Below, one piece after another: positions 24,782-27,768 of a DNA stretch of 32,000 nt (positions are counted from its first letter, which is position 1; each line of letters starts with the position of its first letter). Origin of the DNA: Candidatus Saccharimonadota bacterium (GTDB taxonomy: Bacteria; Patescibacteriota; Saccharimonadia; Saccharimonadales; Saccharimonadaceae); the NCBI GenBank assembly GCA_001029695.1, contig CP011211.1, positions 420,001 to 452,000 of the forward strand. Direction: 5' to 3'. A model generated the notes under the pieces. It did no database searches, had not been told where the DNA came from, and saw nothing but the letters and a program-made list of their open reading frames with translations. Both the position numbers and the translations under genes were made by a program.

Positions 24782-27394
24782 CTACATCCGAGGAGGCACA
24801 GAAACCGATGGACGGCTGTCTGCTGGTGCTGGTGCTGGTGCTGGTGCTGGTGCTGGTGCTGGTGCTGGTGCTGGTGCTGGTGCTGGTGCTGGTGCTGGTG
24901 CTGGTGCTGGTGCTGGTGCTGGTGCTGGTGCTGGTGCTGGTGCTGGTGACGATTGTATGAGCGGTGCAGCGATACCTTCAACTTGACCTGACGACTCTAT
25001 TTCCGTACCCAATACTGACTGCACCTGTTCAAGTGTAATTGTAATCGTACTTCCCGGAAGCACTGACCCGGAAAGCATCTGCTTTGCAACTGTATTTTCA
25101 ACAGCACGCTGCACAACACGGCGCATCGGACGAGCACCGAGTCGTGGATCATAGCCTCTGTCCACAAGTAATAATTTCGCATCCTCCTGAACGTCAACAA
25201 CAATTTTCTGTAAAGCCATCTGTTTATTTATACCTGCAAGAATTAAGTCAATTACCTGCACAAGCTCTGGCTTGTCGAGAGGTCGGAATGTTACAATCTC
25301 ATCAAAACGGTTGAGGAACTCTGGACGAAATTGATTCGTATTGATCAGTTCATCGATAAACTGTTTTTCGAATTGCTCGAGTTTATAGCCTCGTTCGATA
25401 TACTCGCGAATTCTATCTGCACCCGCATTGCTTGTTGCAATAACGATAGTGTCGCGAAAACTCACTTCGCGATTTTTTATGTCTCGCAAGATCCCCTCAT
25501 CGAGTAGCTGGAGTAGCGTCGTCAGTACCTGAGGATGCGCCTTCTCCATCTCATCAAGTAACACCACACTAAAAGGTTGCTTCATGGCCTGTGCAGTAAG
25601 ACTTGATGGGTCATCGGCGCCATCCGCGATAAGTCGAGTTACATCTTCTGGACGGACGTACTCATTCAGGTCAAGACGAATCATTCGTTCTTCACCGCCG
25701 AAATAAACATCAGCGAGCGCCTTTGCAAGCTCGGTCTTCCCCACTCCGGTTGGCCCCAGAAAAAGAAACGTACCGATAGGACGATTTTGGTTACGGACAC
25801 CAGCGCGAGCACGTCTCAACGCATCACTGATTACACCAACCGCGCGCGTCTGATTGATCATACGCTTATGAATCAGATCTTCGAGGTTAAGGAGCTTTTC
25901 TCGCTCATCATCGTTGTTTGCAACACCGACTTTGATATCCATCGTCTGCTCGATCGCGCGCTGCACGGAATTTCCAGTCACTAAGCCGCTGTCGCTGTAG
26001 CTCGCTGCTGTCTCGAGTAGTTTTAGTGCACGTCCCGGCATAGAAAGATCATGGATGTATCGCTCACTCAACCGATAGGCCTCATCAAGCGACTGATACA
26101 TATATGTAACATTTCGCTGAAACTCAGTGATGATCAACTGGTCTTGCATAACTGCAATTGTTTCTTCACGAGACGCACTCGCGATACTAATACGGTTTAA
26201 AGCATTGATGAGCGAAGGATTACGCTGGCCAATCTGCAAGTAGCGCTGTTCGTCCATCGTAAGGATAATCCGAAGACTCCCCGCTTCAAGTATCGGTAGC
26301 AGTACATTTGAAAGATCAACCGACCCCACACCTTCTTCAAAGAATAGCTGCGCATTATCGAGACAGATGATAATATTTTTTGCCGTATAGGCTTCTCCAA
26401 GCACTTGCATAATTAAACCTTCAAGCTCGCCACGACCTGGCGCAGCTGCGATCAAGGCAGATGAATCAAGCAAGAAGATCTGGCGAAACTTCAATGATTC
26501 AGGGATCTTTGCTCCTGCATCAAGGATACGAGCAGCTAACGCATAGACGATCGTCGTTTTACCTACTCCTGCGGCGCCAACAAGAACCGCGTTCTGTCGG
26601 CCACCACTTGCAAACGTATCGACAAGCTGGTCAAGCGCTTGCTGATGTGCCTCAAGCTCAACGTTCATACGACCACCTGATTCACTGAGGTTAATACCAA
26701 ATCTCTTGAGAAGTGGGATATAGCCAAACGAAAAGTCTCTCGCTATACCGCCAGTTCTTTTGGGCATTTTACTCTTTTTTATGAGTGCTCGAATGTGTTC
26801 ATACCAACGAACACCGGCGTATAGATCCGCAATATCCAAATGCATATGTGCCAGCAGTCCGTCATGATCTTCAAAGCTCTCAACAATAGCGACTGCAAGC
26901 ACTGCCCCAGAGATATGTTCACTTCCCGTTAACTCTTGAATCCTGATGGCGTTTTTCCAAAGCAGCTCCGTCTGCGCAGGATCATCGCTCGTGATATTTT
27001 TTAGAAAATTTGCAGTCACTCCAAAGCGAAGAGAAAAGAAGAATCCACCCTGCACTTGACTCGCTGCCACCGCAATCTCTTTTGGCGTAGGGTGAGTACC
27101 GAGCTGTCCAAGAACATCACCAGACAAGCGAGCATCGATTGACTGACTATTTTGAGGAGTTGGGAGGTGGTGAAGATGGCCCGCCCACCAGTCGTATAGC
27201 ATGTAAAATGGAGCAGCAAAGCCACAGATCAACCAACCTATTGGATAATCAAGTACTATCAATACAGTTCCACAGACAAGAAGTCCTACGGTAGCTACGA
27301 GAAGAAGTACTCGCCACAATTTTGTTATCTTCCTTGAAAAACGAGCCTGGACAGCACGTTCACTTTTGCCGTCATACGTGACATATTGATCCAT
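24782..27394 (-). CDS. Membrane-anchored, divergent two-domain Clp/Hsp100-family AAA+ ATPase with C-terminal (PA)21 tail
   Basis: Two N-terminal TM helices (LWRVLLLVATVGLLVCGTVLIVL, IGWLICGFAAPFYMLYDWW). D1 has Walker A VGAAGVGKTT but Walker B IIICLDNA (DN instead of DE; Asn codon at 26354-26356). D2 has GPTGVGKTE and VVLLDEMEKAHP plus the sensor region GARPMRR. No IGF/LGF ClpP-docking loop and no long M-domain are seen. I place the start at MDQYV (27394) because ATG overlaps the upstream stop (TGATG). Confidence 0.75.
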   Translation of the reverse strand: MDQYVTYDGKSERAVQARFSRKITKLWRVLLLVATVGLLVCGTVLIVLDYPIGWLICGFAAPFYMLYDWWAGHLHHLPTPQNSQSIDARLSGDVLGQLGTHPTPKEIAVAASQVQGGFFFSLRFGVTANFLKNITSDDPAQTELLWKNAIRIQELTGSEHISGAVLAVAIVESFEDHDGLLAHMHLDIADLYAGVRWYEHIRALIKKSKMPKRTGGIARDFSFGYIPLLKRFGINLSESGGRMNVELEAHQQALDQLVDTFASGGRQNAVLVGAAGVGKTTIVYALAARILDAGAKIPESLKFRQIFLLDSSALIAAAPGRGELEGLIMQVLGEAYTAKNIIICLDNAQLFFEEGVGSVDLSNVLLPILEAGSLRIILTMDEQRYLQIGQRNPSLINALNRISIASASREETIAVMQDQLIITEFQRNVTYMYQSLDEAYRLSERYIHDLSMPGRALKLLETAASYSDSGLVTGNSVQRAIEQTMDIKVGVANNDDEREKLLNLEDLIHKRMINQTRAVGVISDALRRARAGVRNQNRPIGTFLFLGPTGVGKTELAKALADVYFGGEERMIRLDLNEYVRPEDVTRLIADGADDPSSLTAQAMKQPFSVVLLDEMEKAHPQVLTTLLQLLDEGILRDIKNREVSFRDTIVIATSNAGADRIREYIERGYKLEQFEKQFIDELINTNQFRPEFLNRFDEIVTFRPLDKPELVQVIDLILAGINKQMALQKIVVDVQEDAKLLLVDRGYDPRLGARPMRRVVQRAVENTVAKQMLSGSVLPGSTITITLEQVQSVLGTEIESSGQVEGIAAPLIQSSPAPAPAPAPAPAPAPAPAPAPAPAPAPAPAPAPAPAPAPAPADSRPSVSVPPRM
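24821..24948. repeat. Perfect hexanucleotide microsatellite (TGCTGG)21 encoding (Pro-Ala)21
   Basis: There are 21 uninterrupted TGCTGG units (plus-strand phase) plus 2 nt. On the coding (minus) strand every unit is CCA-GCA. Confidence 0.95.
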
Positions 27395-27768
27395 CAGAAG
27401 GTCACCCCGATAATAGCCATGACTAGACCGATAAGTGGAAGTATAGGAATTGCCGCCCAAAAAACAAGAATCAAAAATCCAATGAGAACCTGAAACACAA
27501 TCACTATTGCACCTACCAGAAGAATGCATATACGCACTATTGCACCGATCAATCGTGATATTAACTTATCCGCAAATGCTCGAAGCTGAACACCAATGGG
27601 GCCATCCGTACGTCCGGCTGAAATCTGACGAAAAGGTGAGAAAAGTGTTTTTACTAGTAGACCCATAGAGAAGTAGTCGAGGCTACTGTCGAGTTTTGCA
27701 CTGACGATACGCGCACGTCGAAGCCATCCATCGCTATACCACCACCGAATAAGACCCATAAAAAGCAT
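27394..27768 (-). CDS. Small hypothetical membrane protein, translationally coupled to the AAA+ gene
   Basis: 124 aa with a C-terminal double TM segment (LIGAIVRICILLVGAIVIVFQVLIGFLILVFWAAIPILPLIGLVMAIIGV). The stop overlaps the AAA+ start. The start is chosen at the second ATG (27768), which lies 6 nt after the TGgTACAAT box. Confidence 0.6.
   Translation of the reverse strand: MLFMGLIRWWYSDGWLRRARIVSAKLDSSLDYFSMGLLVKTLFSPFRQISAGRTDGPIGVQLRAFADKLISRLIGAIVRICILLVGAIVIVFQVLIGFLILVFWAAIPILPLIGLVMAIIGVTF

What the first reader, a model, noticed from the sequence alone, without database searches (positions are those of the whole stretch)
24782..27768. Two-gene unit: small membrane protein plus membrane-tethered Hsp100-like AAA+ with a crippled D1 Walker B
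The AAA+ protein has the ClpA/B/C two-ring layout but differs from known unfoldases in four ways.
- It has two N-terminal TM helices in place of a free Clp_N domain. Only a faint Clp_N-like stretch remains (SEHISGAVLAVAIVE).
- The D1 Walker B is hhhhDN (IIICLDNAQ) rather than DE. This is the natural equivalent of a hydrolysis-dead trap mutant. D2 is intact.
- I see no ClpP-docking IGF/LGF loop and no ClpB-type coiled-coil M-domain.
- The D2 segment LIADGADDPSSLTAQ replaces the usual GAPPGYVGY.

Its ATG overlaps the stop (TGATG) of a 124-aa membrane protein, which suggests a stoichiometric membrane complex. A membrane-anchored, ClpP-independent unfoldase or extractor paired with a dedicated small membrane partner is not a system I can name.
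Basis: partly seen in the sequence, partly recalled or inferred. Interest (0 to 1): 0.65.

Follow-up and report, generated by a model that had tools for sequence, protein, structure and literature searches.

The report
Membrane-anchored Hsp100-like ATPase with partner
This Saccharibacteria gene pair encodes a membrane-anchored relative of the ClpB/ClpC protein-unfolding motors that lacks the substrate-gripping tyrosines in both rings, plus a small membrane subunit that is always encoded with it or fused to it across the Patescibacteria; no function is known for it.

Summary
On the minus strand, a 124/126-aa membrane protein (27394-27774) overlaps by one base (TGATG) an 870-aa two-ring Hsp100-type AAA+ protein (24782-27394).

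The AAA+ protein has an N-terminal TM hairpin, then a divergent Clp_N-like domain. D1 has an intact Walker A but an LDN Walker B. D2 is catalytically intact. There is no M-domain and no ClpP-docking loop.

This holds for the whole family: 133 of 137 full-length representatives have a TM anchor and neither pore motif, whereas canonical Clp ATPases have both motifs and no anchor.

The family spans Patescibacteria (Saccharibacteria, Berkelbacteria, Woesebacteria, Yanofskybacteria). In Saccharibacteria the partner gene sits directly upstream in 79 of 79 testable species. At least 16 of 150 representatives are natural partner–ATPase fusions, so the two are subunits of one machine.

Published Tn-seq in Southlakia calls both inferred orthologues non-essential early and growth-defective later. 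That genome also has a canonical ClpC and ClpP.

I read it as a ClpP-independent, probably non-threading, membrane-embedded Hsp100 derivative of unknown client. No Pfam/NCBIfam family or paper covers it.

The parts
27394..27774 (-). Small membrane partner gene. 126 aa from the first ATG, or 124 aa from the ATG at 27768. It has a ~70-aa cytoplasmic N-domain carrying the invariant motifs WWY-x-DGW and TLFSPFRQISAG, followed by a C-terminal TM hairpin.
   Evidence: - ORF and hydropathy.
- 191 homologues, none with a Pfam domain.
- Invariant columns W11 W12 Y13 G16 F45 P47 F48 R49 Q50 I51 S52 A53 G88 W106 P110 P113.
- AlphaFold2 pLDDT 90.
27392..27396 (-). TGATG stop/start overlap between the partner gene and the AAA+ gene.
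   Evidence: In 78 of 79 related loci the AAA+ start lies within -13 to +3 nt of the partner's stop.
24782..27394 (-). Membrane-anchored two-ring Hsp100-like AAA+ gene, 870 aa.
   Evidence: - Pfam AAA_2, ClpB_D2-small and AAA_lid_9.
- Far below every NCBIfam Clp equivalog cut-off.
- Best PDB sequence matches are ClpB, ClpC and ClpA.
- Foldseek top matches are ClpC and ClpB.
27173..27322 (-). TM hairpin of the ATPase (aa 25-74). It follows a basic N-terminal tail (aa 1-24, nt 27323-27394). The external loop between the two helices is only ~4 residues.
   Evidence: - Hydropathy.
- AlphaFold2 helices 25-47 and 52-74, pLDDT 82-92.
- Invariant G42 G53 W54 W69 L74.
- Charge distribution.
26771..27139 (-). 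Divergent Clp_N-like all-helical N-domain (aa ~86-208).
   Evidence: - A profile of this region hits only the Clp_N domains of ClpB, Hsp104 and ClpA in the PDB (E 0.003-0.03).
- Some distant family members carry a precomputed Pfam Clp_N (PF02861) hit.
- Eight helices, pLDDT ~86.
26714..26752 (-). Family-signature linker motif GGIARDFSFGYIP (consensus GG-I/L-A/G-RDW-xx-GYTP) between the N-domain and D1.
   Evidence: The most distant branch keeps the related consensus GIGxDWAxGYT.
25955..26662 (-). D1 AAA+ module, degenerate.
- Walker A GAAGVGKT (26555-26578) is intact.
- The pore-loop site reads AAAPGRGELE (26420-26449) and has no Tyr.
- Walker B is IIICLDN (26354-26374).
- The Arg-finger motif ERRFQ has become LNRIS.
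25295..25912 (-). D2 AAA+ module, catalytically intact.
- Walker A GPTGVGKT (25733-25756).
- Walker B VVLLDE (25550-25567).
- Sensor 1 TSN, Arg finger NR(696), sensor 2 GAR.
- The pore-loop-1 site reads RLIADGADDPSSLT (25595-25636), with a 5-aa deletion and no aromatic residue.
- No ClpP-docking loop.
25037..25279 (-). ClpB_D2-small C-terminal subdomain (aa 706-786).
24821..24948 (-). Perfect (TGCTGG)x21.3 repeat encoding a (PA)21 C-terminal tail. It is strain-specific and not part of the conserved family architecture.
27810..29800 (+). Context: murT (27810-29081) and gatD (29078-29800). They are transcribed divergently, 35 nt from the partner's first ATG. This synteny holds across Saccharibacteria but not in distant lineages.
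   Evidence: Distant loci lack this synteny.

Best explanation
The two genes encode the two subunits of one membrane-embedded ATPase machine derived from a ClpB/ClpC-type Hsp100.

Shown:
- The ATPase is held at the cytoplasmic face of the membrane by an N-terminal TM hairpin.
- It keeps a divergent Clp_N-like domain.
- D1 keeps an intact Walker A but lacks the catalytic Glu and the pore-loop Tyr. In most of the family it also lacks the Arg fingers.
- D2 has all catalytic residues.
- The ClpP-docking loop, the DnaK-coupling M-domain and the aromatic pore loops of both rings are absent.
- The small protein always accompanies the ATPase and is fused to it in several lineages.

Inferred:
- D1 is an ATP-binding assembly ring that does not hydrolyse, and D2 is the only motor.
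- The partner is a 1:1 structural subunit. Its N- and C-termini are cytoplasmic. Its conserved cytoplasmic domain (WWY and TLFxP[FW][KR][RQ]I motifs) sits between the membrane and the Clp_N/D1 face. Its TM hairpin packs against the ATPase's hairpin.
- The machine does not work by canonical tyrosine-driven polypeptide threading.
- Instead, D2 ATP hydrolysis drives a conformational cycle that is transmitted through D1, the Clp_N-like domain and the GGIARDW-GYTP linker. This cycle acts on the partner and the TM bundle, or on a membrane-proximal client bound there. That makes it a remodeller or switch, closer in logic to Torsin-LAP1 than to ClpB or Msp1.
- The client is unknown. The phenotype in a cultivated relative is a mild, late fitness defect.
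For: Architecture and motif states.

Family-wide link between the TM anchor and loss of both pore motifs:
- 133 of 137 full-length representatives and 120 of 120 close homologues have a TM anchor and neither motif.
- 68 TM-less Clp proteins from the same search have both motifs.
- In the metagenome loci, all ~70 TM-less Clp ATPases have G[YF][VI]G, and the 5 TM-bearing ones lack it.
- The D2 pore-loop site varies in length and sequence across the family, which suggests it is not constrained as a gripping loop.

Partner as an obligate subunit:
- The AAA+ gene lies directly downstream in 79 of 79 loci that have room.
- 9 of 9 distant loci carry the partner module, 6 as a separate gene and 3 fused.
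- An HMM of the partner matches residues ~1-120 of 16 of 150 representatives, including Berkelbacteria.
- In the Woesebacteria fusion the partner's hairpin replaces the ATPase's own hairpin, which fixes both partner termini in the cytoplasm.
- Conserved Gly/Trp/Pro residues occur inside both hairpins.

Not a ClpP partner:
- 0 of 148 representatives have the loop.
- Southlakia epibionticum has a separate canonical ClpC (SEML1_0512) and ClpP (SEML1_0493) (PMC10633639 Tables S1/S2).

Fitness:
- SEML1_0700 and SEML1_0701 are both called NE, NE, GD.
- Normalised reads fall 4124→2517→1638 for SEML1_0700 and 258→157→51 for SEML1_0701.
Against: - No experiment addresses the mechanism.
- Hexamer formation, subunit contacts and topology are all inferred.
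- Loss of the pore-loop tyrosines argues against canonical threading but does not exclude threading with other residues.
- The AlphaFold2 model of D2 is poor (pLDDT ~45-55), so no structural argument can be made about the pore.
- Southlakia orthology rests on synteny and matching Pfam coordinates, not on a sequence alignment.
- Tn-seq insertions in the partner gene may be polar on the ATPase gene.
- The ATPase's read decline (~2.5-fold) is only slightly steeper than that of the non-essential ClpC (~2-fold).
Confidence: 0.4

Rival explanations
1. It is a membrane-protein extractor or unfoldase, like Msp1/ATAD1 or a protease-less FtsH. It still threads substrates through its axial channel using non-aromatic residues, and the partner acts as an adaptor or substrate-entry gate.
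For: - It has a membrane anchor with a cytoplasmic AAA+ body and a fully competent D2 ATPase.
- It retains a Clp_N-like substrate/adaptor-binding domain.
- All other characterised Hsp100s thread their substrates (established knowledge).
Against: - Both pore-loop aromatic residues are missing family-wide.
- The D2 pore-loop site is variable and low-complexity across the family, and acidic (DGADDP) in Saccharibacteria.
- Msp1 and FtsH both depend on aromatic pore loops (established knowledge).
Confidence: 0.25
2. It is an ATP-driven intramembrane or transport device. A hexamer with 12 TM helices from the ATPase and 12 from the partner forms a ring that moves or flips a non-protein cargo, such as host-derived lipid or an envelope precursor, or that gates a channel.
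For: - Conserved Gly/Trp/Pro residues inside both hairpins suggest that the TM segments do more than anchor.
- The family spans several Patescibacteria lineages.
- In Saccharibacteria the pair sits next to murT-gatD, with further cell-envelope genes (murB and a MurA-like gene) elsewhere in the window.
- Canonical protein-gripping loops are absent.
Against: - This is purely architectural inference.
- The external loops are ~4 residues long.
- The murT synteny is confined to Saccharibacteria.
- In the Woesebacteria fusion only one hairpin per protomer remains.
Confidence: 0.12
3. It is the lineage's ClpB, a DnaK-dependent disaggregase that merely acquired a membrane anchor.
For: - ClpB is the best NCBIfam and PDB match, and the D2 region after sensor 1 aligns with ClpB with only a 2-residue gap.
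- In the Southlakia tables, 'ClpB' occurs only within the Pfam domain name (ClpB_D2-small) of two proteins, the canonical ClpC and this one, so no canonical ClpB was noted.
Against: - There is no M-domain, which ClpB needs for Hsp70 coupling.
- There are no pore-loop tyrosines.
- The ClpB equivalog score is 406 bits against a cut-off of 1232.
Confidence: 0.05
4. It is a ClpC paralogue that delivers substrates to ClpP, as most database annotations say.
For: [quoted passage not shown]
- In two distant lineages the pair lies a few kb downstream of tig-clpP.
Against: - 0 of 148 representatives have an [ILVM]G[FL] loop at the ClpP-docking position.
- A 16S rRNA gene separates clpP from the pair in those two loci.
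- A canonical ClpC with Clp_N and UVR domains coexists in Southlakia.
Confidence: 0.03
5. It is a decaying, functionless Hsp100 pseudo-enzyme.
For: D1 is degenerate and both pore loops are lost.
Against: - Orthologues are 54-80% identical across Saccharibacteria species, with hundreds of invariant columns that include every D2 catalytic residue.
- The module pair is retained or fused across Patescibacteria.
- Tn-seq calls a growth defect.
Confidence: 0.03

Closest known systems
ClpB / Hsp104 (class I Hsp100 disaggregase)
   Same: - Two AAA+ rings.
- Clp_N-type N-domain.
- AAA_2 and ClpB_D2-small in D2.
- No ClpP loop.
- Best sequence match of all Clp families (T. thermophilus ClpB, E 3e-105).
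   Different: - TM hairpin.
- No M-domain.
- No D1 or D2 pore-loop Tyr.
- D1 Walker B is DN.
- Obligate small membrane subunit.
- Scores about one third of the ClpB equivalog cut-off.
ClpC / ClpA (ClpP-partnering class I Hsp100)
   Same: - Two rings and a Clp_N-type domain.
- A short D1-D2 junction, as in ClpA.
- A small gene immediately upstream in the same operon, which recalls clpS-clpA.
- Foldseek top hits are ClpC.
   Different: - No IGF/LGF/VGF loop.
- No UVR/M motif.
- No pore tyrosines.
- Membrane-anchored.
- The upstream partner is a TM protein with no similarity to ClpS or MecA.
Torsin with LAP1/LULL1
   Same: - A membrane-associated AAA+ of the Hsp100-D2-like clade that lacks aromatic pore-loop residues.
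- It works only with a dedicated membrane-spanning partner.
- It is thought to act as a remodeller or switch rather than a threader (established knowledge).
   Different: - Torsin has a single ring, is eukaryotic, and sits in the ER lumen.
- Torsin lacks its own Arg finger and receives one from LAP1. Here D2 keeps its Arg finger, and the partner is a 125-aa helical protein with no AAA-like fold.
- This is a functional analogy only. Homology was not tested.
Msp1/ATAD1 and FtsH (membrane-anchored AAA+ extractors)
   Same: An N-terminal TM anchor with the AAA+ body in the cytoplasm, acting at the membrane surface.
   Different: - Those have a single ring of the classic AAA clade and essential aromatic pore loops. 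FtsH also has a protease domain.
- This one has two rings, belongs to the Hsp100 clade, lacks pore aromatics and has a dedicated partner.
NSF and Pex1/Pex6 (double-ring AAA+ with one inactive ring)
   Same: One ring binds ATP for assembly but does not hydrolyse it, and the other ring is the motor.
   Different: In those proteins the active ring keeps functional pore loops. Here the active ring (D2) has lost them as well.

Membership tests
Class I Hsp100/Clp superfamily (two-ring) | Two tandem AAA+ modules, with an AAA_2-type D2 and a ClpB_D2-small subdomain | tested here: met
   - Pfam AAA_2 (538-700, E 3e-42) and ClpB_D2-small (706-786, E 4e-21); D1 P-loop at ~248-350; AAA_lid_9 at 409-476.
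- phmmer against the PDB gives E 1e-105 to 1e-79 for ClpB, ClpC and ClpA.
Class I Hsp100/Clp superfamily (two-ring) | Clp_N-type N-terminal domain | tested here: met
   - The query itself has no Pfam Clp_N hit.
- A profile of the N-region hits only Clp_N domains in the PDB, at E 0.003-0.03.
- Some family members carry PF02861.
- The match is weak and divergent but specific.
Class I Hsp100/Clp superfamily (two-ring) | Aromatic pore loops: D1 KYRG[ED]FE and D2 GYVG | tested here: not met
   - D1 reads AAAPGRGELE and D2 reads ADGADDP with a 5-aa deletion.
- Both motifs are absent in 120 of 120 close homologues and 133 of 137 representatives.
ClpB | Coiled-coil M-domain inserted in the D1 small subdomain | tested here: not met
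   - Query residues 473-495 align opposite ClpB residues 398-543.
- The junction length is uniform at 95-100 aa across the family.
ClpB | Score at or above the NCBIfam equivalog cut-off (TIGR03346) | tested here: not met
   405.8 bits against a cut-off of 1232.1.
ClpC / ClpA / ClpE (ClpP partners) | [ILVM]-G-[FL] ClpP-docking loop after D2 sensor 1 | tested here: not met
   Found in 0 of 148 family representatives. That region is a uniform 46 aa, as in ClpB.
ClpC / ClpA / ClpE (ClpP partners) | Score at or above the NCBIfam ClpA equivalog cut-off (TIGR02639) | tested here: not met
   363.6 bits against a cut-off of 993. The library gave no ClpC equivalog hit.
ClpC / ClpA / ClpE (ClpP partners) | Physical and functional coupling to ClpP | not testable with these tools
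   Requires biochemistry.
Membrane AAA+ extractors (Msp1, FtsH) | N-terminal TM anchor with a cytoplasmic ATPase | tested here: met
   Hydropathy and AlphaFold2. The N-tail is basic.
Membrane AAA+ extractors (Msp1, FtsH) | Aromatic pore loop needed for substrate extraction | tested here: not met
Membrane AAA+ extractors (Msp1, FtsH) | Sequence membership of the classic AAA clade or FtsH family (Pfam Peptidase_M41, FtsH_ext) | tested here: not met
   No such Pfam or NCBIfam hits. The best hits are all Hsp100.
Torsin-like non-threading AAA+ with a TM cofactor (functional analogy) | No aromatic pore loop, plus a dedicated membrane-spanning partner | tested here: met
Torsin-like non-threading AAA+ with a TM cofactor (functional analogy) | The ATPase lacks its own Arg finger, which the partner supplies | tested here: not met
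   The D2 Arg finger (N695-R696) and sensor 2 (G753-A754-R755) are invariant.
Anti-phage defence systems (PADLOC) | Full-length match of either protein to a defence-system model | tested here: not met
   Only partial AAA-domain hits (DolB at 491-657, and others). The partner has none.

The most novel reading that the evidence does not exclude
Patescibacteria carry a previously unrecognised class of membrane machine. It is an Hsp100-derived hexamer whose only active ring has given up polypeptide threading. Together with an obligate small subunit it forms a ring of about 24 TM helices. It uses ATP to do work in or at the membrane, for example handling host-derived lipids or envelope precursors, or gating or assembling another envelope complex needed for the epibiotic lifestyle.
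Probability: 0.15. Interest if true: 0.9.

Novelty: new variant of a known kind. Interest (0 to 1): 0.7.

Why it matters
- Tyrosine pore loops that thread polypeptides are central to the accepted mechanism of Hsp100/Clp motors. A large, conserved natural family that keeps a fully competent D2 ATPase but lacks both pore-loop tyrosines, is anchored in the membrane and has an obligate partner would show what else this scaffold can do.
- It is one of the few widely conserved, wholly uncharacterised machines of the Patescibacteria, a large and mostly uncultivated bacterial radiation.
- It sits in genetically tractable Saccharibacteria, where Tn-seq already shows a fitness effect, so the question can be tested directly.
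- Current 'ClpC' and 'Clp protease ATP-binding subunit' annotations of these genes are probably misleading.

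Tried and rejected
- Metagenome scan with a profile of distant members. The back-translated patterns were generic Clp motifs, so 75 of the 80 loci were canonical ClpB/ClpC. I used these as a negative control. Only L085, L086, L087, L091 and L096 were family members.
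- Pfam, PHROGs and PADLOC on the partner gave nothing. NCBIfam also gave nothing.
- Pfam on 29 N-region fragments gave no Clp_N hit at E<=1. Only the profile-against-PDB search and precomputed hits on distant members revealed the Clp_N relationship.
- Foldseek of the full-length model returned ClpC, ClpB and ClpA as expected, with low TM-scores because of domain arrangement and the poor D2 model. It was not discriminating.
- Literature searches found no description of this family. They covered Saccharibacteria+ClpC, Patescibacteria+AAA+/membrane-anchored, CPR+ClpB/ClpP/FtsH, Patescibacteria+Hsp100, Saccharibacteria+AAA ATPase, and several 'membrane-anchored ClpB/ClpC/Hsp100' phrases. The Cell 2023 main text does not mention it.
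- The promoter/terminator scan around the pair gave nothing above the shuffled expectation.
- I considered a functional link to MurT/GatD and rejected it. The synteny is strong in Saccharibacteria (76 of 80 loci) but absent in all distant lineages examined.
- I considered that the tig-clpP neighbourhood in L165 and L168 indicates ClpP coupling and rejected it. A 16S rRNA gene intervenes and the ClpP loop is absent.
- My strict regular expression for the linker signature missed most distant members, so I do not use it as a family count.

Full report
**1. What is in the sequence**

Both genes lie on the minus strand.
- The small ORF spans 27394-27774.
- Its stop codon TGA (27396-27394) shares one base with an ATG (27394-27392), giving TGATG. 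That ATG opens an 870-aa reading frame ending at 24782.
- The mechanically longest ORF (915 aa, from 27529) is an upstream extension that overlaps the small gene. Homologues of ~800 aa begin at the equivalent of the TGATG start.
- Base composition, four tRNAs and the neighbouring genes look like an ordinary chromosomal region. The neighbours include murB, SHMT, a MurA-like gene, murT-gatD, AhpC and OpgC.
- The best homologues are from Saccharibacteria (TM7, Patescibacteria).

**2. Anatomy of the ATPase**

Pfam finds AAA_2 (538-700), ClpB_D2-small (706-786), a weak AAA_lid_9 (409-476) and a D1 P-loop. It finds no Clp_N. NCBIfam places the protein nearest ClpB, ClpA, ClpG, ClpK and ClpV, but at about a third of each curated cut-off, so it belongs to none of them.

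Residue-level alignment to T. thermophilus and E. coli ClpB, together with alignments of 120 close homologues and 67 species-level orthologues, gives the following.
- **D1 Walker A** GxxGxGKT is intact.
- **D1 Walker B** is LDN. N347 is present in 121 of 121 close homologues. Among 68 orthologues, 61 have LDN and 7 have LDD.
- **D1 pore loop** AGAKYRGEFE has become AAAPGRGELE, so the tyrosine is lost.
- **D1 Arg-finger motif** ERRFQ has become LNRIS.
- **M-domain** is absent. Query 473-495 aligns opposite ClpB 398-543.
- **D2** Walker A, Walker B (DE), sensor 1 (TSN), Arg finger (N695-R696) and sensor 2 (GAR) are all invariant.
- **D2 pore loop** LIGAPPGYVGYEEGG has become LIADGADDPSS, with a five-residue deletion and no aromatic residue.
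- **The stretch after sensor 1** aligns to ClpB with only a two-residue gap and has no [ILVM]G[FL] ClpP-docking tripeptide.

**3. The N-terminus**

- Hydropathy shows one long hydrophobic stretch at residues 22-63.
- AlphaFold2, run with a 47-sequence alignment, resolves it into two helices, 25-47 and 52-74, joined by a four-residue turn (pLDDT 82-92). A confident eight-helix domain follows at 86-208. D2 was modelled poorly (pLDDT ~45-55), so I draw no conclusions from that part of the model.
- The N-tail is basic and the turn carries no positive charge. This fits an N-in/C-in hairpin with the ATPase in the cytoplasm.
- A profile of the N-region from 29 diverse family members, searched against all PDB sequences, returns only Clp_N domains of ClpB, Hsp104 and ClpA as its top 14 hits (E 0.003-0.37). 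Several distant members carry a precomputed Pfam Clp_N hit.
- The hairpin is therefore added in front of a divergent Clp_N domain. It does not replace that domain.
- Between this domain and D1 lies a family-specific motif, GGIARDFSFGYIP, with consensus GG(I/L)(A/G)RDWxxGYTP. The most distant branch keeps a related form, GIGxDWAxGYT.

**4. The family**

An exhaustive HMMER search of 1.84 billion cluster representatives returned 150 best hits. Nearly all are 790-900-aa proteins with N-terminal TM segments.

Motif extraction shows:
- Of 137 full-length representatives, 133 have a TM anchor and neither pore-loop motif.
- Only 20 of ~146 keep a canonical DE in D1. The rest have DN, DD, EN, ED, PN and others.
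- In the distant branch the D1 Arg-finger motif is mostly xFEK.
- The D2 pore-loop site varies in both length and sequence.
- None of 148 has a ClpP loop.
- The D1-D2 junction is uniformly short.
- D2 Walker B (DE) is kept throughout, and D2 Walker A is invariant in the alignments examined.

As a control, 68 TM-less Clp ATPases retrieved by the same profile have both motifs. So do the ~70 canonical Clp genes picked up by the unspecific metagenome scan, whereas the five TM-bearing genes in that scan have neither.

Source names place members in Saccharibacteria, Berkelbacteria, Woesebacteria, Yanofskybacteria and unclassified Patescibacteria. A few Chloroflexi or Verrucomicrobia labels sit on contigs with Saccharibacteria-type synteny and are probably binning errors.

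The DN substitution is therefore neither a strain mutation nor the key feature. It is one expression of a family-wide degenerate D1.

**5. The partner**

- The small protein has no Pfam, NCBIfam, PHROGs or PADLOC match. It does have 191 homologues of ~125 aa.
- It has strikingly invariant cytoplasmic motifs, W11-W12-Y13-x-x-G16 and F45-x-P47-F48-R49-Q50-I51-S52-A53. It also has conserved G88, W106, P110 and P113 in the hydrophobic C-terminal half.
- AlphaFold2 (pLDDT 90) gives three short helices, a conserved loop (43-59) and a long hydrophobic helix.
- A scan of one genome per GTDB species with the motif PFRQISAGxV found 212 species, essentially all Saccharibacteria.
- In the 80 loci kept from that scan, the ATPase gene lies immediately downstream on the same strand in 79. 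The exception has only 195 nt of sequence left downstream. In 78 of those 79, its start lies within -13 to +3 nt of the partner's stop.
- In nine loci from distant lineages the partner module is always present. It is a separate upstream gene in six (L086, L091, L096, L165, L166, L168) and is fused to the N-terminus of the ATPase in three (L085, L087, L167).
- An HMM of the partner matches residues ~1-120 of 16 of the 150 representatives. Some of these are from Berkelbacteria.
- In the Woesebacteria fusion the partner's hairpin is followed directly by the Clp_N-like domain, so it replaces the ATPase's own hairpin. This places both ends of the partner in the cytoplasm.

Repeated independent fusion is classical evidence that two proteins act as one unit in fixed stoichiometry.

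**6. Experimental context from the literature**

Table S1 of the Patescibacteria genetics paper (PMC10633639) lists the following in Southlakia epibionticum:
- SEML1_0700, 'AAA family ATPase', 860 aa, with Pfam AAA_2 at 544-706 and ClpB_D2-small at 713-792.
- SEML1_0701, hypothetical, 127 aa, overlapping SEML1_0700.
- Both sit next to murT (0702), gatD (0703) and opgC (0704), which is the synteny of this window.

I infer orthology from synteny and domain coordinates. I could not align the sequences.

Both genes are called non-essential at P0 and P1 and growth-defective at P2. Normalised reads fall 4124→2517→1638 for the ATPase and 258→157→51 for the partner. The paper's main text does not discuss them.

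The same genome encodes a canonical ClpC with Clp_N and UVR domains (SEML1_0512) and ClpP (SEML1_0493), both non-essential. The membrane protein is therefore not the organism's ClpP partner by default. Polar effects, and the modest size of the ATPase's decline, limit how much can be read into the Tn-seq data.

**7. Interpretation**

Shown:
- A two-module unit conserved in every Patescibacteria lineage sampled.
- Membrane anchoring.
- A retained Clp_N-like domain.
- A degenerate D1 and an intact D2.
- No ClpP loop, no M-domain and no aromatic pore loops.

Inferred:
- D1 is a nucleotide-binding assembly ring, as in NSF D2 or Pex1/6 D1, and D2 is the only motor.
- The partner is a stoichiometric subunit. 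Its cytoplasmic domain sits between the membrane and the N-domain/D1 face, and its hairpin packs with the ATPase's hairpin.
- Because the gripping residues are gone and the D2 loop is not even conserved across the family, the machine most likely does not thread polypeptides in the canonical way.
- Instead it probably converts D2 hydrolysis into a conformational cycle that acts on the partner/TM bundle or on a membrane-proximal client.

The nearest functional analogy is Torsin with LAP1/LULL1, although here D2 keeps its own Arg finger.

I give this reading 0.4. The architectural parts deserve much higher confidence than the mechanistic part. The rivals are:
- a non-canonical threading extractor (0.25);
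- an intramembrane or transport device (0.12);
- an anchored ClpB (0.05);
- a ClpP-coupled ClpC paralogue (0.03);
- a decaying relic (0.03).

**8. Novelty**

The protein is unmistakably an Hsp100 homologue, so it is not categorically new. However:
- it fails defining features of ClpB (M-domain, equivalog score), of ClpA/ClpC (ClpP loop) and of threading Hsp100s in general (pore loops);
- the partner has no family at all;
- no paper or curated model describes the unit.

I class it as a new variant of a known kind. It is of high interest to AAA+ and Patescibacteria specialists, and it can be tested directly in the existing Saccharibacteria genetic systems.

Noticed in passing
window 24821-24948 (minus-strand coding): A perfect hexanucleotide repeat (TGCTGG)x21.3 encodes a (PA)21 tail at the C-terminus of the ATPase. 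It is absent from the 94%-identical relative P0001 (831 aa). It is either a recent microsatellite expansion, possibly length-variable, or an assembly artefact.
   Followed up: partly
L165 2871-7529; L168 2466-12427: In two distant Patescibacteria the partner+ATPase pair lies downstream of tig-clpP. It sits between the 16S rRNA gene and, in L168, the 23S rRNA gene about 7 kb further on. tRNAs and several protein-coding genes lie in between, so the rRNA operon is split by protein genes.
   Followed up: partly
L167 5001-7454 (P0460, Woesebacteria); L085 3482-5956; L087 3545-5869: These are natural fusions of the partner domain to the ATPase. In L167 the partner's TM hairpin replaces the ATPase's own hairpin. 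Other fusions (e.g. P0302, 896 aa) appear to keep both hairpins.
   Followed up: partly
window 27775-27809: Only 35 nt separate the partner's first ATG from the divergently transcribed murT start, so the promoters of the two operons must overlap coding sequence or each other. The consensus promoter scan found nothing convincing there.
   Followed up: partly
window 6941-8470: A 509-aa protein with an N-terminal HTH_3 domain fused to an EPSP-synthase-fold (MurA-like) enzyme. The same fusion lies beside SHMT in other Saccharibacteria (L001, L004).
   Followed up: no
window 749-3679: A 976-aa protein made almost entirely of RCC1-like repeats (WD40_RLD/RCC1). It is preceded by a 167-aa ORF with no Pfam hit whose stop overlaps its start.
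   Followed up: no
window ~11000-20000: This stretch has lower G+C (0.37-0.45, against 0.45-0.53 in the first 11 kb) and many short ORFs, several of which were scanned and gave no Pfam hit. It could be a variable or island-like region.
   Followed up: no
L008, L037; P0391: Contigs carrying the Saccharibacteria-type pair with murT synteny are deposited under Chloroflexi and Verrucomicrobia MAG names. These are probably mis-binned contigs.
   Followed up: no
window 27323-27394 (ATPase aa 1-24): The short cytoplasmic N-tail before TM1 is conserved. Saccharibacteria share an F…S-x-RA-x-KAR pattern, and distant members have an aromatic residue plus Ser and basic residues. No role has been assigned, and the tail is absent from the L167-type fusion.
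   Followed up: no
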